Positions 1-11,446 of a DNA stretch of 11,602 bases are shown piece by piece; position 1 is the stretch's first letter, and each line of letters opens with the position of its first letter. The position numbers and the translations under genes were made by a program. The notes beneath the pieces were generated by a model. It saw only the letters and a list, made by a program, of their open reading frames with translations, made no database searches and was not told where the DNA came from. This DNA is from an uncultured archaeon (GTDB lineage Archaea; Asgardarchaeota; Hermodarchaeia; Hermodarchaeales; Hermodarchaeaceae), in the NCBI GenBank assembly GCA_964347045.1, contig CAYFXC010000012.1:31819-43420 (forward strand). The letters are read 5' to 3'.

Positions 1-365
1 ATGCCGATTGGATCGAAGCCACTCCCTCCTGACATAAGAAGTGGAATAACCATCGCGATAATCCCAATAATTAGCATTAGGAAGGTTAGTGTGAATATAA
101 CAATGGCAACTGGAATGGCACCCCAGAGGCTTCGTACAAATAATCCAGTAATGAAACCGATTATCGCCCAAATAACGATGTTTGTTGTGAAGTTGAGGGG
201 GTTGGCGAAAATAAGGAACAGGTACATTAGGAAAAAGCGTAGCCAAGGGCCAAAGTAGGGTGCAAGCCATAAAATGATGTTATTGTATTCTACGGGAATC
301 ATGGCAAAGGCTATTGAGATGGTGAGTAGAAAGCCGACTGACAGTCCGATTAATTTTCGTCCCAT
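1..365 (-). CDS. Multi-pass membrane protein of unknown function (5' part only; runs off the left edge)
   Basis: Manual translation from ATG at 365: MGRKLIGLSVGFLLTISIAFAMIPVEYNNIILWLAPYFGPWLRFFLMYLFLIFANPLNFTTNIVIWAIIGFITGLFVRSLWGAIPVAIVIFTLTFLMLIIGIIAMVIPLLMSGGSGFDPIG..., open to the window edge with about 4 hydrophobic segments. It is absent from the ORF track because there is no stop in the window. The + ORF 1..258 is its antisense shadow. Confidence 0.85.
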   Translation of the reverse strand, partial: MGRKLIGLSVGFLLTISIAFAMIPVEYNNIILWLAPYFGPWLRFFLMYLFLIFANPLNFTTNIVIWAIIGFITGLFVRSLWGAIPVAIVIFTLTFLMLIIGIIAMVIPLLMSGGSGFDPIG

Positions 366-1781: not shown

Positions 1782-4466
1782 CTATCGTGTGCTTTGAATA
1801 AAAGATCGTGTCTTATTTTGTTTGCGTTCCCATTCCTTCCGAGCAGATCGCAATTCGAACAAATTGATATCTTTGTAAATGATGTCTTGTTTACCCGGAG
1901 GGACGGTTCTTTCTGCTCGTTCTTTTTCAGGTGTGTAAATAAGTGAGTCACCAAATTCAGCTACATTAACGAAGAAGCTGTATGCGTAGATGGAGCGGCG
2001 AGCATCAAAATGAGTGGCTTTGAAATCAGCGGTAACTGGTGTGAAGGCTGGATTGATAATGACATCAATGGGAGGTTCGTGGTTCTTTAATTCCACACGT
2101 AGATCCATATCCAGGAAGTCACGACAGATGATTATGGCAATTCGCCCATATTCGGTATTAGCTACGGTTATTTGTGTTGGTGATGTATCGGCGACTATTC
2201 CTTCAATTATGCGCTGTTTCTGGAAATGAATTGTTGCCGGAATGCGCTTCGTTTGTTGCCAGAGAATACCTTTTGGGGAAATTATTGTACTAATGTTCTG
2301 TCTCGTGTCAAGGTTGTGATATGACCCAGGAATAATGTACATATTATAGGTCATTGCTAATGCTAAAACAGAGTCTAGTAGTGCCTTGGAATTAAGATCA
2401 ATTGTGAGTTCAGGGAATGCCAGAATTTTGATATCGTATGTTGAAGCTGTTTTCACCATTTTTTGTAGTGTGGTTTGAATTTCAGGAATTTTGTTCTCAC
2501 GAAGTCTGAAAAGACCCGGTAAATCCTCTTGGTAGAATTCGCTAAGGATGTCACCAGTTTGTGATAGCCCAATCTGTGCTATACCAATCCTGAAGTTCGA
2601 CTGCTCGTGTTGATGATTTTCTCTCAATAAATCAAGGTAAACTAATTTGTATTTTTTCTCAGATTCCGGTCGAATTATTCCTTTCTCGTCCATCAGATCA
2701 GTGACGGTCTCCTGTATCATTCGCTCAAGTAGGTCATCGAGTTTGGTGAGTGCTATCATTTCTTGTTTTGTAGGATTCTCTTTGATAATGGAAGCCCATT
2801 TTTGCATTTGCATATCGAGGATGTTTCTTTCTTCTAATAGAGTTTTGGCTAGTTTTTCTAATCCTGTCTCATCCGCGATTGCTTGTGCTTGTGTGAGTAA
2901 CTTGTTTGCCTTGCCCATGTCCATTTCGACTAGAGCAAGCTTTGATTGAAGTAAGTAGGTTTCAACTAGCAAGGAGTGAGAAGACTGTTGCTTTGCGATT
3001 AATAAGAGTCGATTTGTAAGTTCTGATATATCACCAATCAGTTCAGCTTCACCTGTTAATTTGAGTTCAGATAACAGTAAATCGCAAAGATGGATCATTG
3101 CCGTAACAGTCAGAGAATGATCCACTACATCTTCTGCAACAACTTCTTCAAGAATTTCTGCTGCTTTAAGCTTCTGACGGGTCCGTTTACCTGTTTTTAG
3201 AACTAGGGCTTGGGCTATCCGGAATCGTTGATTGATGATTCGATTATTAGCACGAACATTGATTGTTTTGAGTTGTTGAAGAGATTTGTCAACTAGAGGT
3301 GAATCTCGTCTTTCTAAAGCAATCCACACTAGCTCCAACAATACAACAGCTTTTAGGTATTCATTTCCAAGTTTATCAAAGATCTCAAGGCTTAGTTGAT
3401 AATATTTTTGGGCTTGCCTATAATCACCCTTCTTCCGATACACTCCACCCACATTGGACAACAACAAGCCGGTATATTCTTTTATTCCCAATTTTTCGTA
3501 AATTGCCAAACTCTTTTGAAAACACTCGAGGGCTTGATCCAAATATCCTTTCAATTCGTAAATATTTCCAAGATTGTTGATTGCCAGAGCGACATTTCTT
3601 TGGATTCCTGTCTTTTTAGCAATCTCTAAGCTTTGCTGATAGTAGTTTTGAGCCTCTGTGAGGTCTCCCTTTAACTGAAACACTGAACCCAAGTTAATGA
3701 GAGACAAGAAAATATCACGTTTGAGACCATATTCCTGTCGGATAGTTAGACTTTGTTGTTGATATTCAAGGGCTTTCCCAAGATCACCGGTTCTTACATA
3801 ACAATTGCCAAGGTTGGAAAAGATAGTCGCAGTCCTTCGTCTATTACCAATTTTTTTGTTAGCTTCGAGTGCTTTTTGAAAGAACTTTATCGCTTGATCA
3901 TTATCTCCCTTCGACCAATATACAAGCCCTAAATTGTTTAATGATCGGCCGATACCTTCTTTATCTTTCAAGGCTTCTTTGAATTTAAGGCTGTTTTTGT
4001 GGTAGTCTATGGCAATATCAAGGTCGCCTTGATACCAGTAGACAATGCCACCATTATGGAAAAGATCTCCCCTTCGTCGGGCGATTTCCATCTCTAATTC
4101 CTTATCAATACCATCTAAAAGTTTGAAACCAGTTTCTATTGATTCAAGAGCTTTATCCATGTTTTCTGAGCGCCAATAAATCTCCGCCTGAAAAATCAGA
4201 ATGTCAACTTTAAACAAGGGATTAGCAGTTACTAATTGAGATTCCTCGAGTTCATCAATTATTGAATGAGCTTGGTTTAGTTTTCCAAGATCGAGTTGCA
4301 GTCTACATTCAAGTAATTTATACGAAAATTTGTCCTTCGGAGATAGTTTTTCAATGGCAATAGAGCGCATTTGCTTTAATGCGTCTTTATATTCACCTTT
4401 CTCTCTTAATTGATTAATTGACGATAAATGCTTCCTAATCGTCTTTGACAAAGTCGATTCTTCCAC
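1782..4466 (-). CDS. TPR-repeat protein fused to a C-terminal carbon-nitrogen hydrolase (nitrilase superfamily) domain
   Basis: GTG start. About 6-7 TPRs with a 40-aa period (e.g. GRSLNNLGLVYWSKGDNDQAIKFFQKAL, ALAINNLGNIYELKGYLDQALECFQKSL; nt ~3330-4075), then a helical block, then from aa ~625 the nitrilase fold: FRIGIAQ, ILAFPE (E686), NISTIISPKG, QTK (K740), GRIAIIICRD (C781), DVIINPA, FVN..GDS. Confidence 0.92.
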   Translation of the reverse strand: MEESTLSKTIRKHLSSINQLREKGEYKDALKQMRSIAIEKLSPKDKFSYKLLECRLQLDLGKLNQAHSIIDELEESQLVTANPLFKVDILIFQAEIYWRSENMDKALESIETGFKLLDGIDKELEMEIARRRGDLFHNGGIVYWYQGDLDIAIDYHKNSLKFKEALKDKEGIGRSLNNLGLVYWSKGDNDQAIKFFQKALEANKKIGNRRRTATIFSNLGNCYVRTGDLGKALEYQQQSLTIRQEYGLKRDIFLSLINLGSVFQLKGDLTEAQNYYQQSLEIAKKTGIQRNVALAINNLGNIYELKGYLDQALECFQKSLAIYEKLGIKEYTGLLLSNVGGVYRKKGDYRQAQKYYQLSLEIFDKLGNEYLKAVVLLELVWIALERRDSPLVDKSLQQLKTINVRANNRIINQRFRIAQALVLKTGKRTRQKLKAAEILEEVVAEDVVDHSLTVTAMIHLCDLLLSELKLTGEAELIGDISELTNRLLLIAKQQSSHSLLVETYLLQSKLALVEMDMGKANKLLTQAQAIADETGLEKLAKTLLEERNILDMQMQKWASIIKENPTKQEMIALTKLDDLLERMIQETVTDLMDEKGIIRPESEKKYKLVYLDLLRENHQHEQSNFRIGIAQIGLSQTGDILSEFYQEDLPGLFRLRENKIPEIQTTLQKMVKTASTYDIKILAFPELTIDLNSKALLDSVLALAMTYNMYIIPGSYHNLDTRQNISTIISPKGILWQQTKRIPATIHFQKQRIIEGIVADTSPTQITVANTEYGRIAIIICRDFLDMDLRVELKNHEPPIDVIINPAFTPVTADFKATHFDARRSIYAYSFFVNVAEFGDSLIYTPEKERAERTVPPGKQDIIYKDINLFELRSARKEWERKQNKTRSFIQSTR

Positions 4467-4663
4467 ACAGATGAGTTATTTGAACCCTATTCACAGGGAA
4501 TCTTATAATTGTTTGAATTGGAACAATATTTGAAATCAGTATCTCGAATAATGATTCATGCCCAGTTCCCTATTCAATCAATTGGTAAACTCGTCAACTT
4601 TTAGAGCAGCTAAATTAGGTAATCTTTCTCGATTAGTTATGAACTTGATTAGGAGTATGTCAA

Positions 4664-5661
4664 TTGCCAAATATTTGGAAACCTGAAATGCCTCAAATAA
4701 AAAGGGGAAAGCCAAATCACTTCGGGGGATGGTACTATAAGAACGTAGATGCCAATGAAGAAAATGCAATTGCGATTATTCCAAGTGTCTCTTTTGGAAA
4801 GAATCAGGAGGAGAGTCATTCATTTGTACAAGTCTTTGATGCGATAAACTTAGATTCATATTACTTTACATTCCCCATTATTGAATTCAATAGCAATCGC
4901 AAACAATTTGAAATTTCTATACAAGAAAATGAATTCCGGTTAAATGGTGCTAGTCTAAATCTAGATGATGGTAAAAACAAAATATCTGGTTCTCTTAAAT
5001 TTGGAGAACCAATTCCATGGCCAGTTCGACTCTTCAACCCTGGAGCTATGGGGCCATTTCGTTTTGTTCCAAGAATGCAAACTCAACATGGTATCCTTAG
5101 CTTTGATCATGACATTCAAGGAAAATCAAAATCAATCAACGTGTGATTGATTTCTCAAATGGCCGTGGTTACATCGAAAAGGATTGGGGTAAAGAATTTC
5201 CTTGTACTTGGATTTGGATGCAATCCAACCATTTTGACTTTCATGGCATTTCCTTCACCGCATCAATTGCGAATATTCCGTGGATAAAGTGATCATTCAC
5301 TGGATATCTAATCGGTCTCTTCTATAATGGAAAGGTGCACAGATTCACCACTTATACAAGAGCAAAACTTTCTGCTCTCCAAGTTTCTGATCATGCTGTG
5401 ACCTTTACTATTCAAGATAAGCGATTCTTAATTGAGGTTAATGCACAACGTTCGCACGGAGCTATGCTTCGATCTCCAGTGGAGGGCTTGATGACGGGAC
5501 GGATAATAGAGGGTCTCGATAGTAGTATTCATGTTCTATTCTATTCATTAGGCAAATCCAAAAAAGAACTCATCTTTGAAGGTATGGGTAGAAATGCTGG
5601 TCTTGAGGTTGTCGGTGACTTCTCCAAGATAGGAGCAGTTGAGGTTCAGACGATTTATTAA
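4664..5661 (+). pseudogene. Tocopherol cyclase family protein, disrupted
   Basis: TTG start with AGGAG at 4651-4655. Motifs FxGWYYK, MGPF.F.P.M...HG, GRGYIEKDWG..FP..WIWMQSNHF, SIANIPW and GRNAGLEVVG are spread over two frames. A 1-nt deletion in the A-run at 5122-5125 shifts the frame (adding one A restores QG-KIKINQRVIDFSNGRGY). There is an in-frame TGA at 5290-5292 (IPWIK*SFTG). ORFs 4664-5146 and 5335-5661 are fragments of this one gene. Confidence 0.88.
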
Positions 5662-5664
5662 AAG

Positions 5665-5672
5665 TATTAAAA
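5665..5672 (+). promoter_or_regulatory. TATA-like box for a probably leaderless DUF362 transcript
   Basis: TATTAAAA about 28-35 nt upstream of ATG 5700, with no SD in between. Confidence 0.4.
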
Positions 5673-5699
5673 AAGTACGCAGCAGATTTCTTCTTTAAC

Positions 5700-6491
5700 A
5701 TGGAATTAGTTGCCCTAGTCAATGCTGATCATGATTTCGTTACGATACTTAAAAAGGGACTCAATTTAATCGGTAGTTTTGGACAGTTAAAATCCCCTGT
5801 GATAATCAAACCAAACATTTGCACGATTTCTGATAACACTGGTTATTCTGTAACGCATGCTATGGTGGTAGAAGCACTTCTTGAATTACTTTTTCAACAA
5901 AATCCTAACCTTTCTGTAAGAATTGTTGAATCTGATTCCCAAAGTAAATGGGCAAATGAAGCTTTTACAAAATATGGGTATACTGATCTTACTACAAGAT
6001 TTCAGAACAAAAAGTATGATGTGGATTTAGTAAATCTGAGTGAAAGAAAAACCGAACTTGTACTTTTCGAGGGTGATTATTTTCAGAATCCTGAACTTCC
6101 CGATGTTCTAGTGAATCCTGGATATGTTATTTCTGTGGCGCAGGCAAAAACCCATTACCTAACATCGATTACTGGTGTATTGAAGAACCTCTTTGGGCTC
6201 CTTCCACGCAAGAACCAGAATTATTATCACCCCAATATCCATGAAGTCATTAGTGATTTGAACAGAATCATTCCAACTAGTCTTGCTGTAGTGGATGCCC
6301 GAGTGGGTGTCAAAGGATGGAACGGACCCAAAACGACTCCTCTTAACAAATTTATTTTAGGGCATCACCCGGTTTCAGTTGATGCGGTACTTGCGCAATT
6401 AATGAAATTAGAACCTGAAGAAATTCAGCATTTATTACAATGTCATAAATATGGACTTGGAACATTATCTCCACAAATCCTTGGTGACTAA
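5700..6491 (+). CDS. DUF362 domain-containing protein (no C-terminal ferredoxin module)
   Basis: Family motifs VIIKPN, VTH..VVEAL, IVES, SVAQAKTH...ITGVLKNLFG, VVDA, HPVSVDAVLAQLM and GLG....I.GD. Confidence 0.9.
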   Translation: MELVALVNADHDFVTILKKGLNLIGSFGQLKSPVIIKPNICTISDNTGYSVTHAMVVEALLELLFQQNPNLSVRIVESDSQSKWANEAFTKYGYTDLTTRFQNKKYDVDLVNLSERKTELVLFEGDYFQNPELPDVLVNPGYVISVAQAKTHYLTSITGVLKNLFGLLPRKNQNYYHPNIHEVISDLNRIIPTSLAVVDARVGVKGWNGPKTTPLNKFILGHHPVSVDAVLAQLMKLEPEEIQHLLQCHKYGLGTLSPQILGD

Positions 6492-6996
6492 GGAAGCGAA
6501 AGAATTGAAGGAAAGTAGCCATCGACAGGTGTACACGGAACTCACATTCTATCTCTGGAGAGTTCGATGGAAATCCAATGACGAATGGTTCCCAAGAATC
6601 ATGATTAATGGTTCAAAGAACGCATTATCCGTAATGTATGATGCTATTCAATCGATGCGTGAAGATTTCAGGACCTATGGAAAAAGTACACGTAAATTTT
6701 TATGTAACCCACCTGAGGACATAGATGTTATCAGATACGCAAAGGAAAACAATGCAGAAATTGAATGGCAAATTTGGCTTATTCTGCGAATGGAACCAGA
6801 CGTTTATAATGACTCATCCTATGAACTAAAAAACAAAGCCGTCACACTTCGATTAAATGATCAAATGGCTGAGAAACTTCTACAAACACTTGATGCTTAT
6901 CGTGAATCAATAACTCCCATTGGAATGGGATTAGCAACTCTCGGAGGTCTGTTTTTTACAAATGATTGGTTAGGCATTCAACAAAAGTCGAATTAG
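6484..6996 (+). CDS. Hypothetical protein, probably translationally coupled to DUF362
   Basis: Open frame 6451-6996 with globular alpha/beta-like composition. The GTG at 6484 overlaps the DUF362 stop by 8 nt, which is more plausible than the ATG at 6451 (41-nt overlap). The start is uncertain. Confidence 0.7.
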   Translation: MTKEAKELKESSHRQVYTELTFYLWRVRWKSNDEWFPRIMINGSKNALSVMYDAIQSMREDFRTYGKSTRKFLCNPPEDIDVIRYAKENNAEIEWQIWLILRMEPDVYNDSSYELKNKAVTLRLNDQMAEKLLQTLDAYRESITPIGMGLATLGGLFFTNDWLGIQQKSN

Positions 6997-8518: not shown

Positions 8519-11446
8519 CTAACTCGACCGTACCGTTAGGTAGAAGTATTCGGTTTCTGTGTGTACTCCATCAACAATGATTCGAAGTTCGATAATAAAT
8601 GTCGTCAGGAGAACACCTGGATCAAGGTTTTTGGCATGGATAGTAATTGTGCCACCCATCAGGTCCATTGGATACATCGTGGACATGCCAACATTATAGA
8701 GAAATACTCCACTCGAGAATGATGAGGTCACATTTGTATTATGGTAATAGATGTCGAAGTTAGGACTATAGACTGCGAGTTGGATGATAACATCGTTAGT
8801 AGAGCTATTCCCATTTTTAACAAGGTAATTGAGGGAGGCATCTTCACCCACATCAATGTCAAAGGGATCGAGACTGGTTTCCACAAAATTTACTCCAGTC
8901 ACAGTTTGATTGTAACCGAAGAAGAACTGAGCATAAGCCTCTGCGGCTGTGGCACCATACGCGACGTGATTGATATTTTCAGCATCCACCATTCCAACAA
9001 ATACAAGGGTTTCAACAAGAGATTGTCCTTGTGCTTGTTCAGCGTATACAGGAAAGAGGTAGACAAGTCTTTCACTGAGTGTCATGAGCAATCTGTTACC
9101 AATTCGATAGGGCTGAATAAGTACTAGGTCAGAACGGGCTTGTTGTTCAAAACTTTCAACTGCAGCATCGACTCCAAAGACAGGGCTTGTAGGTACTTGG
9201 GTTGTCGGATCGAGTGTGCCAGCACGAGCAAAAACTCCAGTTCCCACGTTCGGTCCATTTTTGAAGAGATAGAACCCTGCCATTTTTTGAGCTTCATGGC
9301 GAATATATCGGACAGCCTGATAACCGACCCAGTGAAGACTACCATTGAAAGGAAAGAGAACGTAGTGGATGTCAGGCTGGCTATGTGGTTTTTCAAAAAA
9401 GTCCGAATAGTTCCGCCATACCCAAGGATCAGTTACATGGTAGTAAAAATCTACAGCTAATTGGAAATCAATTAACTCTTCAGGATATCGAAGCTGATCT
9501 TCAAGCCACGCGGGAACATCAACCCAAGGATACCAGTTTTCATACAAAGATTCTATGAAGAACTGGGCTGGATCCGCATTGGGGTTGCGCACCCAAGTAA
9601 TTTCACCATTGGCAGAGTTTATCACAGCAAATCCGAGGAGTCGAAGATAGGATGATTGTGCGTATTGTAGCTGCATGGGATATCCACTGAAAATTGGGAC
9701 ACAGTAGAAAGCTTCTCGGTCAATACGATTGAATACCAAATAGGGATCATTGTCAGTATACATGAATGGTAAAAGAATTGCTTCCACACGGTTTTGTATA
9801 TCACGGTGAATTAGCATATTGGCGACAGGTTCATTAAAGGCAAGCCATGTAAAGCTTAGATCTTCAATACTCCAGATTAGTTTCTTTAGAGCAAGTTCAG
9901 CACCTGAGAGTCGGTAGTCGGGTTCTCCTTCCCAACTATACACTCCAGTCTCTGGAGCAATTGTTGTGTCCACGAGGACAAAGCCTTCAAATCCATTATT
10001 ATATGCAGTAGGAGGAGATTCACCATAGTAAATCGGAAAGTTAGCATTCACTCCAAAGATACTGAGAAATTGACTTCCTGTAAGAAACTCACCCGTAGCG
10101 CTACTGGCATCTAAAGCAGAGGCACCTTCAGCATGTGTATAGAGAATATACTCTTTATGAAAATCATCGCGACTTGGCGGTGTGAGAGAATAGGGAGTTA
10201 TCCAGTATTCTCTTCCACCAACATATACAATATCACTATCGGAAAGCGACATCCAATTTGCGATGGTTTGACTTCGCATCTTATTACGGCTTGCTTCAAA
10301 ATCCCAGAGTCTCGAATGTCCAAGAACTTCTCCGTCAGAGACACCAGAATTATTTACTAGCTCCTCATAGGGCAGTTCAGTGGTATCTGGTCCACCAGCC
10401 CAATTTGTGAATTGAATTTCTTTTGTCACGAGTGGATTCCAGTGCCAAGGTTCCCACATTTGACCTTGAATCGGTCCCGCAACAAGATAGCCTGTGTAAA
10501 GGGCTGGTCCGACAATGAGAGCAATTGCTACGATACCTAATCCTACATAGACACGTCGATTCATCCGCGGAACTTCACCTGCGCGGCCAAAACGACCAAA
10601 TATGGTTAATCCAAATGAAATGGCACATATTGTCACAAAGAAAACGAAAAGAATGAGAATTTGAAGAACGAAAAATTGAGTACCTACATCTACTTCTATA
10701 TAGGGAACTCCAAGTAGAATCCAAAAGAGAGCTAACACAACGATAAAAGAAATGGAGGCAAGGACGCGAATTTCAGGATACTCTGTTGACCGTCCAACAC
10801 GACCAAAGTAGTGGATGAGATCAAACACAACTCGAACTCCAATAATAATTAGAAAAAGTGTCGTGAAGGTAAAGAATATGGTATATTGAACCTCAATAGT
10901 CGAGATTAGGTTTGCAACGACATTGGTGGGAACCATGGGATTGAAAATGAGTTGAAATACTGCAGGCACCTGACTCCAGTCACCAACCCCAGAGGCTGAA
11001 CTTTGAAACAATAATGCCACGTAACGCATATTCTCTGTGAAAATGAAAGTTAACACAAGATAAGATCCAACAAAAAGGATGGCTTTCCACGCCGCAACAA
11101 TATACCATTGAGGGATTCGCCGGCTACTGAATCGATCACTCATGTAGACTAGATTTAACGTTTTTGATTCCCAGGGTAACCCAAAAAAAGTAATAATTAT
11201 CGCCATCGGAATGCCTACAAAGAAGAGCAGTCCATTAAGAGAATAGGTGGCCCACCAGGACACACCTGCTTTGTTGAGATACATTATATCCAAAATCTTC
11301 CAATCTAAAAGTAGATTCTGAATGCCAATCGATGCAACCGCAATTATAACGATAATAATGATTGCAACAATAACTCCTACGAGTATCTTTCTTTGCGAAC
11401 GGCCAACTGATATCATTCGTCGTGATTCATAATCCAAATACGACAC
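8519..11446 (-). CDS. UPF0182 family (COG1615) membrane protein with a C-terminal Ig-like domain
   Basis: About 8 N-terminal TM helices, then the motifs SRLWD, LYTHAEG, IYYGE, HRDIQNRV, DNDPYLV, LRYPEEL...Q....YHVTDP and GNRL. The last ~125 aa are beta-rich with N-x-S/T sequons. Start is GTG 11446 or ATG 11416. Confidence 0.92.
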   Translation of the reverse strand: MSYLDYESRRMISVGRSQRKILVGVIVAIIIIVIIAVASIGIQNLLLDWKILDIMYLNKAGVSWWATYSLNGLLFFVGIPMAIIITFFGLPWESKTLNLVYMSDRFSSRRIPQWYIVAAWKAILFVGSYLVLTFIFTENMRYVALLFQSSASGVGDWSQVPAVFQLIFNPMVPTNVVANLISTIEVQYTIFFTFTTLFLIIIGVRVVFDLIHYFGRVGRSTEYPEIRVLASISFIVVLALFWILLGVPYIEVDVGTQFFVLQILILFVFFVTICAISFGLTIFGRFGRAGEVPRMNRRVYVGLGIVAIALIVGPALYTGYLVAGPIQGQMWEPWHWNPLVTKEIQFTNWAGGPDTTELPYEELVNNSGVSDGEVLGHSRLWDFEASRNKMRSQTIANWMSLSDSDIVYVGGREYWITPYSLTPPSRDDFHKEYILYTHAEGASALDASSATGEFLTGSQFLSIFGVNANFPIYYGESPPTAYNNGFEGFVLVDTTIAPETGVYSWEGEPDYRLSGAELALKKLIWSIEDLSFTWLAFNEPVANMLIHRDIQNRVEAILLPFMYTDNDPYLVFNRIDREAFYCVPIFSGYPMQLQYAQSSYLRLLGFAVINSANGEITWVRNPNADPAQFFIESLYENWYPWVDVPAWLEDQLRYPEELIDFQLAVDFYYHVTDPWVWRNYSDFFEKPHSQPDIHYVLFPFNGSLHWVGYQAVRYIRHEAQKMAGFYLFKNGPNVGTGVFARAGTLDPTTQVPTSPVFGVDAAVESFEQQARSDLVLIQPYRIGNRLLMTLSERLVYLFPVYAEQAQGQSLVETLVFVGMVDAENINHVAYGATAAEAYAQFFFGYNQTVTGVNFVETSLDPFDIDVGEDASLNYLVKNGNSSTNDVIIQLAVYSPNFDIYYHNTNVTSSFSSGVFLYNVGMSTMYPMDLMGGTITIHAKNLDPGVLLTTFIIELRIIVDGVHTETEYFYLTVRSS

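What the first reader, a model, noticed from the sequence alone, without database searches (positions are those of the whole stretch)
1782..4466. TPR scaffold fused to an apparently active nitrilase-superfamily enzyme
Seen: 40-aa TPRs with a repeated Asn ladder (NNLG, SNLG, INLG), a helical block, and a C-terminal C-N hydrolase domain with the full triad E686/K740/C781. Known: Asn-ladder TPRs grip extended peptides (LGN/GPSM2, RRNPP receptors). Nitrilase domains are usually stand-alone or fused to metabolic enzymes, but they also act on proteins (yeast N-terminal amidase Nta1) and occur in anti-phage RT-nitrilase (DRT1) proteins. Inference: a ligand-gated or substrate-recruiting amidase, either a protein/peptide-modifying enzyme or a sensor-effector for signalling or antiviral defence.
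Basis: partly seen in the sequence, partly recalled or inferred. Interest (0 to 1): 0.7.

Follow-up and report, generated by a model that had tools for sequence, protein, structure and literature searches.

The report
TPR scaffold carrying effector-type nitrilase
This Asgard-archaeal (Hermodarchaeota-type) gene joins a peptide-binding helical-repeat scaffold to an intact amide-cutting enzyme whose nearest relatives are anti-phage effector enzymes. Both halves are swappable modules, so it is probably a self-contained switchable enzyme, but its trigger and substrate are unknown.

Summary
ORF 1782-4466 (-) encodes 894 aa: an unbroken TPR/alpha-solenoid (aa 1-562, five 40-aa repeats with an N-L/V-G Asn ladder), a flexible conserved linker, and a C-terminal nitrilase-fold module. 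The module has E686/K740/E755/C781 intact and an invariant FIQSTR-COOH tail.

It is neither a one-off nor an artefact. More than 850 homologues exist, mostly in Asgard archaea, and two lie on closed bacterial (WOR-3) chromosomes.

The module is a tight clade. Its nearest outside relatives are defence-type nitrilases (RT-associated, UG5, DRT1, CARF). The genome's own four housekeeping nitrilases are far more distant.

Modularity runs both ways. The nitrilase is also attached to FIST, STAND, giant-solenoid and signal-peptide/beta-helix/TM receptor parts. The same TPR scaffold instead carries a Ser/Thr kinase or a KaiC-like ATPase.

Best reading (about 0.45): a single-chain, sensor-gated effector amidase.

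An antiviral role is not shown. The gene is syntenic within its genus, has no defence-island context, and its TPR is well conserved.

The scan noted this family before on other DNA. The searched literature does not describe it.

The parts
1782..4466 (-). Whole gene: 894-aa TPR-nitrilase protein. GTG start; the stop codon TAG is at 1782-1784.
   Evidence: orthologues of 885-900 aa in 12 of 14 genomes of the genus
4077..4466 (-). aa 1-130: N-terminal helical cap of the solenoid. This is the most variable part, with mean pairwise identity 0.33 in 55 full-length relatives.
   Evidence: weak TPR_MalT match at E 5e-5
3312..4076 (-). aa 131-385: canonical TPR array of 40-aa repeats with the Asn ladder (N177/N178, N218, N258, N297/N298, N338).
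   Evidence: The ladder is invariant across nitrilase, kinase and KaiC forms. Best structural match is the LGN/Pins TPR.
It is highly conserved (0.56-0.59 identity, with aa 451-510 at about 0.77) and is diagnostic of this scaffold family.
2661..2780 (-). aa 563-602: conserved but low-confidence linker (two short helices, pLDDT 30-48). The junction where outputs are exchanged lies at about aa 590.
1785..2660 (-). aa 603-894: nitrilase-superfamily module (alpha-beta-beta-alpha sandwich) of the effector-type clade.
2409..2411 (-). Codon of catalytic Glu686 (FPEL).
   Evidence: invariant in 55 full-length relatives
2247..2249 (-). Codon of catalytic Lys740.
   Evidence: invariant in the 39 module representatives
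2202..2204 (-). Codon of Glu755, the second Glu of the nitrilase catalytic tetrad.
   Evidence: invariant
2124..2126 (-). Codon of the catalytic nucleophile Cys781 (IICRDFLDMDLRVELKN, the most conserved stretch).
1785..1802 (-). Invariant C-terminal tail FIQSTR-COOH (aa 889-894). It is unstructured in the monomer model.
   Evidence: In DRT1 the conserved C-terminus covers a neighbour's nitrilase site (PMC13275509). The analogy is inferred, not shown.
4501..4510 (-). AATTATAAGA, a TATA-like box about 35-45 nt upstream of the GTG. Possible archaeal promoter element.
   Evidence: read from the sequence; inference only

Best explanation
The gene encodes a cytosolic, single-chain sensor-effector protein. 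The 560-residue TPR solenoid is the input part. Its Asn-lined groove binds an extended peptide or protein segment that is conserved across hosts. The C-terminal module is the output: an active Cys-Glu-Lys-Glu amidase of the effector-type nitrilase clade, tethered by a flexible conserved linker. The most likely control is by assembly. Nitrilase-superfamily enzymes need homo-oligomers for activity, so ligand binding to the scaffold would bring nitrilase modules together or release them. The invariant FIQSTR tail would then complete or uncover the active site. The enzyme would hydrolyse an amide (or nitrile/carbamoyl) bond in a target common to archaea and bacteria, most likely a universal metabolite.

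Shown here: the architecture, the intact catalytic residues, the clade membership, two-way modularity, autonomy (no conserved partner gene) and presence in both domains of life.

Inferred: gating by oligomerisation, peptide binding, and the kind of substrate.

Biological role: a stress, conflict or immune-type response, or a signalling output. This is undecided.
For: (1) Catalytic residues. E686 and C781 are each kept in 38 of 39 module representatives; K740 and E755 are invariant. E686, E755 and C781 are invariant in 55 full-length relatives, and K740 is kept in at least 90% of them.
(2) Closer to defence nitrilases. The module hits PADLOC CARF_nitrilase, RTasNitrilase and RT_UG5-nitrilase at E 1e-12 to 5e-10, against E 1e-3 for Pfam CN_hydrolase.
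(3) Nearest outside relatives. In an exhaustive search of 1.8e9 representatives the family is a tight island of 48 clusters at E<1e-30, followed by a gap. Of the next 67 relatives, 55 match RTasNitrilase, 46 match RT_UG5-nitrilase, 45 match CARF_nitrilase and 30 match Drt1a. Their partners are LRR, nSTAND3 and HEAT.
(4) Distance from housekeeping enzymes. The module HMM scores those relatives at 33-102 bits but the genome's own four housekeeping nitrilases at only 14-17 bits. In the tree the module is monophyletic (SH-aLRT 100) and groups with the LRR- and HEAT-nitrilases.
(5) Closest solved structure. The module profile aligns to the DRT1 nitrilase (9yfd) over the whole domain up to the C-terminus (E 4.7e-6). 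In DRT1 and UG5 the nitrilase Cys is needed for defence, and assembly controls activity (PMC13275509; PMC13436386).
(6) Output-domain behaviour. The same module (52-62% identical) follows FIST, a giant solenoid, a P-loop protein and a STAND AAA_16. It also follows signal peptide + beta-helix/PKD ectodomain + one TM helix + a K/R-rich stretch. In that receptor topology the N-terminal part cannot be presenting the substrate.
(7) Input-module behaviour. The same scaffold, aligned up to aa ~590, carries a Ser/Thr kinase or a KaiC-like ATPase instead.
(8) Conservation gradient. Identity rises from cap 0.33 to TPR 0.49, helical block 0.56 and nitrilase 0.67.
(9) Autonomy and transfer. There is no shared neighbour in Hermod, Hod, Thor or WOR-3 loci. 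Full-length copies lie on two closed chromosomes that have bL19 and lack eS8, so they are bacterial.
(10) Patchy distribution. The module is in 12/14 genomes of the genus and 2/4 of the sister genus, but only 1/22 of the other genomes of the phylum, and that one has three copies.
(11) Flexible tether. The full-length model shows two rigid parts joined by a low-confidence tether (pTM 0.64; linker pLDDT 30-48).
Against: No ligand, substrate or oligomeric state is known. A TPR scaffold about 50-60% identical across phyla and domains is much more conserved than typical pathogen sensors. Within the genus the gene sits at a fixed, non-mobile locus between housekeeping-looking genes, usually as a single copy. 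There is no defence-island context, and the module was not found in viral contigs. Kinase and KaiC-like alternatives on the same scaffold fit ordinary signalling or protein modification equally well. TM-anchored forms could reflect localisation rather than gating.
Confidence: 0.45

Rival explanations
1. Substrate-recruiting protein- or peptide-modifying enzyme, comparable to O-GlcNAc transferase. The Asn-ladder TPR superhelix threads a protein segment and hands it to the tethered nitrilase. The nitrilase would deamidate a side chain or N-terminus, or remove an acyl group from an amine.
For: The TPR part matches the LGN/Pins peptide-binding TPRs best, and also OGT and SPINDLY, which are TPR superhelices with a C-terminal protein-modifying enzyme. 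The same scaffold carries a Ser/Thr protein kinase at the same position. The Asn ladder is invariant whatever the output. The scaffold is strongly conserved, as expected for a conserved cellular partner. From established knowledge, nitrilase-superfamily members do act on protein-linked amides (Nta1, biotinidase, Lnt).
Against: The same nitrilase module sits behind a transmembrane helix with the repeat domain outside the cell, and inside a STAND NTPase. There the N-terminal part cannot present substrate. Nta1 is the weakest structural match in the superfamily (Z 18.2). The nearest sequence relatives are defence effectors, not protein amidases. A KaiC-like ATPase as an alternative output is not a substrate-modifying enzyme.
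Confidence: 0.25
2. Dedicated antiviral abortive-infection protein. The TPR recognises a viral protein, and the nitrilase then destroys an essential metabolite and stops the infected cell, as proposed for DRT1.
For: The nearest relatives are RT-, CARF-, STAND- and LRR-linked nitrilases listed in PADLOC. The nitrilase Cys is required for defence in DRT1 and UG5. The phyletic spread is patchy, some genomes hold multiple copies, and the gene has crossed between domains. Related scaffolds form tandem arrays (L015).
Against: The gene is syntenic and mostly single-copy in the genus, with flanks that look like housekeeping genes. No known defence genes lie beside it in five contexts. The TPR is conserved rather than diversifying. 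No NTPase, RT or CARF is present. No phenotype is available for any member.
Confidence: 0.15
3. Constitutive housekeeping amidase. Its TPR merely anchors it in a complex or at a place in the cell.
For: The locus is stable within the genus. Both halves are well conserved. Databases annotate the family as a predicted amidohydrolase.
Against: The genome already has four canonical nitrilases, and this module is only remotely like them (14-17 bits). The module was not found in 21 of 22 other genomes of the phylum that were searched. N-terminal parts are swapped freely, and one paralogue, P0145, has lost the Glu and the Cys. No metabolic operon surrounds it.
Confidence: 0.1

Closest known systems
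Nitrilase effector domain of DRT1 (UG1) and of UG5/DRT11, class 3 UG/Abi reverse transcriptases (PDB 9yfd; PMC13275509, PMC13436386)
   Same: A C-terminal nitrilase-superfamily domain with an intact catalytic tetrad, used as the output of a multidomain protein. The module profile aligns to the DRT1 domain from the catalytic Glu region to the C-terminus (E 4.7e-6). PADLOC RT-nitrilase models are hit at E 1e-12 to 5e-10. Both have a conserved extreme C-terminus. The substrate is unknown in both.
   Different: There is no reverse transcriptase, no protein-primed DNA and no alpha-repeat/RT scaffold here; the input is a TPR solenoid. Sequence similarity is remote. An anti-phage role is shown for DRT1 and UG5 but not for this family. 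The motifs differ (ICRDFLDMDLRVELKN, FIQSTR).
CARF-nitrilase ancillary proteins of type III CRISPR systems (PADLOC PDLC01989)
   Same: A sensor domain fused to a nitrilase of the same broad clade (E 1.1e-12). 45 of the 67 next-nearest relatives hit this model.
   Different: No CARF domain and no CRISPR context. The expected ligand is a peptide or protein, not a cyclic oligoadenylate.
LGN/GPSM2/Pins TPR domain, and the O-GlcNAc transferase TPR-plus-enzyme layout
   Same: 40-residue TPRs with an inner Asn ladder forming a superhelix (Foldseek E 8e-12, 21-25% identity, TM to target 0.5-0.6). OGT and SPINDLY also join an N-terminal TPR superhelix to a C-terminal enzyme.
   Different: The catalytic domains are unrelated. 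Peptide binding is not shown here. The solenoid is longer (about 560 aa) and continues into a block specific to this family.
Avs/STAND (NLR-like) sensors with TPR domains, and MalT-type regulators
   Same: A TPR_MalT-like sensor region joined to an exchangeable enzymatic output. One relative, P0120, does carry an AAA_16 STAND NTPase.
   Different: This protein has no NTPase domain or Walker A motif. The output is C-terminal to the TPR, whereas in Avs the effector is N-terminal.

Membership tests
Nitrilase (C-N hydrolase) superfamily | Four-layer alpha-beta-beta-alpha sandwich fold | tested here: met
   The AF2 model has pLDDT 92. Foldseek gives E 2e-14 to Nit2 with TM 0.69. VIA gives Z 18-26 to 24 superfamily entries, and the next fold scores Z 8.
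Nitrilase (C-N hydrolase) superfamily | Catalytic Glu-Lys-Cys triad plus the second Glu | tested here: met
   E686, K740, E755 and C781 are present and conserved in relatives.
Nitrilase (C-N hydrolase) superfamily | Pfam PF00795 at or above its gathering score | tested here: not met
   The score is 18.5 bits against 23.2 for this protein. Several close homologues pass at 24-40 bits. The family therefore lies at the edge of the model, not outside the superfamily.
Nitrilase (C-N hydrolase) superfamily | Homo-oligomer needed for activity | tested here: inconclusive
   The homodimer prediction gave no verdict.
Defence-type nitrilase clade (RT-associated UG1/UG5/UG6/UG29, CARF-nitrilase) | Closer in sequence to these than to housekeeping branches | tested here: met
   
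DRT1 / UG5 systems | UG/Abi reverse transcriptase fused to or next to the nitrilase | tested here: not met
   No RT domain is found in the protein or in any ORF of the window that was scanned.
DRT1 / UG5 systems | Protection against viruses that depends on the nitrilase Cys | not testable with these tools
   This needs an expression and challenge experiment.
CARF-nitrilase | CARF sensor domain | tested here: not met
   The PADLOC match covers only the nitrilase part of the model (positions 218-415 of 457). The N-terminus is TPR.
STAND / Avs NLR-like proteins | P-loop NTPase (NACHT, NB-ARC or AAA_16) between sensor and effector | tested here: not met
   There is no Pfam NTPase hit and no Walker A motif. 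The model is all-helical repeat up to aa 562.
LGN-type peptide-binding TPR | 40-aa TPR repeats with a conserved Asn ladder on the inner face | tested here: met
   
LGN-type peptide-binding TPR | An extended peptide bound in the groove | not testable with these tools
   No ligand is known. The protein's own linker is not confidently docked (pLDDT 30-48).
Nta1 N-terminal amidase branch | Nta1 is the nearest branch of the superfamily | tested here: not met
   Nta1 (5b62) is the lowest-scoring superfamily member (Z 18.2 against 25.8 for Nit2). It is absent from the sequence hits.

The most novel reading that the evidence does not exclude
The nitrilase module is a previously unrecognised signal-transduction output domain, on a par with kinases and cyclases. 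A family of Asgard and bacterial receptor-enzymes (cytosolic TPR, FIST, P-loop and STAND forms, and true single-pass transmembrane receptors) would switch on an amidase. That amidase would make or destroy a small-molecule messenger, or deamidate a universal protein. The same TPR input is wired in other organisms to a Ser/Thr kinase or a KaiC-like ATPase.
Probability: 0.15. Interest if true: 0.85.

Novelty: new variant of a known kind. Interest (0 to 1): 0.55.

Why it matters
Nitrilase effectors are a recent and unexplained addition to prokaryotic immunity. Their substrate is unknown even for DRT1.

This family offers the same kind of enzyme in a much simpler, RT-free, single-gene form that is present in closed bacterial genomes. 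That should make the substrate question easier to address experimentally.

The family is also one of the more abundant multidomain families of Asgard archaea. It shows two-way domain shuffling (one input with several outputs, one output with many inputs, including transmembrane receptors). This bears on how receptor-enzyme architectures arose in the lineage nearest to eukaryotes.

Tried and rejected
- Homodimer prediction of the module (two copies, alignment A1): score 0.37 against a mark of 0.42, so no verdict. I do not use it either way.
- A single-sequence search of PDB found only a weak Nit2-like hit. The profile search was needed.
- Neither structure library listed the DRT1 structure, so no fold-level comparison with DRT1 was possible.
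- An earlier scan note on the 1277-aa form proposed that the protein's own linker plugs the TPR groove. Here the linker (aa 567-602) has pLDDT 30-48 and is not confidently placed, so I found no support for a plug in this form.
- The small C-terminal domain of the ~730-aa scaffold paralogues looked roadblock- or longin-like to me. Pfam and a PDB profile search gave nothing significant, so I dropped the assignment.
- P0126's P-loop region gave only a faint Arf match (E 0.076), so I do not call it a GTPase.
- The viral-contig scan found no relative (two short patterns only, so this is weak negative evidence).
- Literature searches for nitrilase together with Asgard, STAND, TPR, conflict systems or Lokiarchaeota found no description of the family.
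- The look-up of sequencing runs and the protein-atlas search were closed, so I have no expression data and no atlas look-up.
- dN/dS was not attempted. Orthologues are about 60% identical, so synonymous sites are saturated.
- Assembly artefact was rejected. The same architecture occurs on closed chromosomes and in hundreds of independent assemblies.
Full report
**1. The observation**

The window holds one long ORF on the minus strand, 1782-4466, of 894 aa with a GTG start.
- A TATA-like AATTATAAGA lies about 40 nt upstream.
- N-[LV]-G motifs fall at aa 178, 218, 258, 298 and 338, exactly 40 residues apart.
- Pfam gives TPR_12 at E 3e-78 and TPR_MalT over aa 256-535.
- Pfam CN_hydrolase is only a sub-threshold match (18.5 bits against a cut-off of 23.2), but the fold is secure. 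The AF2 model of aa 603-894 has pLDDT 92. Foldseek matches Nit2 at E 2e-14. VIA gives Z 18-26 for 24 nitrilase-superfamily entries, and the next fold scores Z 8.

A fourth catalytic residue, E755, and an extreme C-terminal tail FIQSTR are invariant in relatives.

The full-length model (pLDDT 84, pTM 0.64) has three parts: an unbroken alpha-solenoid at aa 1-562, a low-confidence linker at aa 567-602, and the nitrilase at aa 606-882. There is no TM segment and no Walker A motif.

**2. Not a one-off**

A search with the module found 858 proteins of 491-1565 aa. The 120 best listed are 60-77% identical in the module, and most are ~890-aa TPR-nitrilases from Asgard MAGs.

A scan of one genome per species found 276 loci.
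- The nearest are Hermodarchaeota MAGs, so the window is very probably from a Hermodarchaeon.
- The top 80 are almost all Asgard (Loki/Prometh-, Hermod-, Hod-, Thor- and Heimdall-archaeota).
- Two closed 'WOR-3' chromosomes also carry it. They encode bL19 and lack eS8, so they are genuine bacteria. The whole fusion has therefore crossed between domains of life.

**3. Where the enzyme belongs**

An exhaustive search of 1.8e9 cluster representatives gives a tight island of 48 clusters at E<1e-30, followed by a gap.

I scanned the next 67 relatives as a set.
- 55 match PADLOC RTasNitrilase, 46 match RT_UG5-nitrilase, 45 match CARF_nitrilase and 30 match Drt1a.
- Only 17 reach Pfam CN_hydrolase at 1e-5.
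- Their partner domains are LRR, nSTAND3, HEAT and PUA.

The query itself hits the PADLOC nitrilase models at 1e-12 to 5e-10.

The genome has four ordinary stand-alone nitrilases at 90-211 Pfam bits. The module HMM scores them at 14-17 bits, against 33-102 bits for the defence-type relatives.

In a maximum-likelihood tree rooted on those four, the module is monophyletic (SH-aLRT 100). It groups with the LRR- and HEAT-linked nitrilases at moderate support (88).

Against PDB sequences, the module profile finds Nit2 (partial) and DRT1 9yfd (whole domain to the C-terminus) at about 5e-6.

Published work shows three things (PMC13275509; PMC13436386):
- UG-associated nitrilases form one cluster.
- Their Cys is required for defence.
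- DRT1 activity is controlled by assembly and by a conserved C-terminal lid. Its substrate is unknown.

**4. Two-way modularity**

The module (52-62% identical) is attached to several other parts:
- a 1276-aa solenoid;
- FIST;
- a protein with a P-loop region (P0126);
- an AAA_16 STAND NTPase plus alpha/beta hydrolase, with the module inserted after Walker A (P0120);
- a signal peptide, beta-helix/NosD/PKD ectodomain, one TM helix and a K/R-rich stretch (P0143, P0144, P0147). This is a single-pass receptor topology with the enzyme inside the cell.

Conversely, the scaffold block aa 385-610 finds proteins 55-60% identical that align with P0001 up to aa ~590 (...LLERMIQETV). These then carry a Ser/Thr kinase (P0283, P0297, P0323) or a KaiC-like ATPase (P0271, P0301, P0317). 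One kinase form lies beside trmD-rplS, so it is bacterial.

The Asn ladder is invariant across all three outputs.

More distant (30-40% identical) ~730-aa scaffold paralogues end in a small unassigned alpha/beta domain. They form tandem arrays in other Asgard genomes.

**5. Genomic setting**

The genome has one copy of the module and one of the scaffold.

The module occurs in 12 of 14 genomes of the genus and 2 of 4 of the sister genus. Among 22 other genomes of the phylum it occurs in only 1, and that one has three copies.

In five genomes of the genus the gene lies in the same place, between a 208-aa gene and DUF362, two orphan genes and UPF0182. The flanks are 80-86% identical, against 60-64% for the gene itself. 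A variable 0.24-1.2 kb spacer sits on its 5' side. In three other genomes the context differs.

Hod, Thor, WOR-3 and bacterial-kinase loci share no neighbour with one another and show no recognisable defence genes.

Identity rises along the protein: cap 0.33, TPR 0.49, helical block 0.56, nitrilase 0.67. For aa 781-840 the per-position conservation (frequency of the commonest residue) is about 0.93.

**6. Mechanism**

The receptor and STAND forms show that the module is an output whose N-terminal partner need not touch the substrate.

Nitrilase-superfamily enzymes are active as oligomers (established knowledge, restated). I therefore favour control by induced assembly or release, with the invariant tail acting at a neighbour's site as in DRT1. 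This step is inferred. My homodimer prediction gave no verdict.

The gene works without a conserved partner and exists in both bacteria and archaea. Its ligand and substrate should therefore be common to both, and a universal amide-bearing metabolite is the simplest guess.

The OGT-like alternative, in which the TPR presents a protein to the enzyme, stays open for this particular architecture. LGN and OGT are the best TPR matches, and a kinase can replace the nitrilase.

A specifically antiviral role is possible but not supported by the gene's context or by how conserved the TPR is.

**7. Novelty**

I found no description of the family in the searched literature. Databases call it 'TPR repeat protein/predicted amidohydrolase'.

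Earlier notes of this scan describe orthologues and the giant forms on other DNA. I re-tested the clade placement independently.

New in this report:
- the kinase and KaiC swaps on the same scaffold;
- the transmembrane receptor topology;
- synteny within the genus;
- the conservation gradient along the protein;
- proof that the bacterial copies are bacterial.

It is a new variant of a known kind, a sensor fused to a nitrilase effector.

Noticed in passing
window 4467-5699: The spacer between the TPR-nitrilase gene and DUF362 varies between species of the genus, from about 240 bp to 1.2 kb. Here it holds two orphan ORFs (4664-5146 + and 5335-5661 +) with no match in relatives. G008 has an unrelated 278-aa gene at this spot.
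   Followed up: partly
window 8519-11446 (-): A 975-aa multi-pass membrane protein of family UPF0182. It is 84-86% identical across the genus and is the most conserved gene of the window. Its function is unknown.
   Followed up: no
window 5700-6996 (+): A DUF362 gene (263 aa) is followed by a 181-aa orphan ORF that overlaps it by about 40 nt. Both are conserved in the genus (70% and 50% identity).
   Followed up: no
window 3-365 (-): This is the start of a conserved 208-aa orphan gene downstream of the TPR-nitrilase, 80% identical in the genus. In G008 it is followed by a 614-aa zinc-ribbon protein and, 5 kb on, by a tyrosine integrase.
   Followed up: partly
L015 1463-13213 (G036:C148): Five tandem ~730-aa paralogues of the TPR scaffold (30-35% identical in the helical block). 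Each ends in a ~130-aa alpha/beta domain with no Pfam or PDB sequence match. That genome has 14 copies and G021 has 9. The same small domain opens P0126, ahead of a P-loop region and the nitrilase module.
   Followed up: partly
P0120 (1090 aa, Zixibacteria-labelled): The nitrilase module (aa 128-419) is inserted inside an AAA_16 STAND NTPase, between the Walker A region and the hhhhDD Walker B. A helical region and an alpha/beta hydrolase follow. Here the FIQSTR motif is internal.
   Followed up: no
P0145 (534 aa): A close paralogue of the query's module has the catalytic Glu changed to Asp and the Cys changed to Gly, so it is probably an inactive copy.
   Followed up: no
P0190, P0193, P0197, P0201, P0202, P0206 and others (about 600-640 aa): Many of the next-nearest, defence-type relatives carry two nitrilase domains in tandem in one chain.
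   Followed up: no
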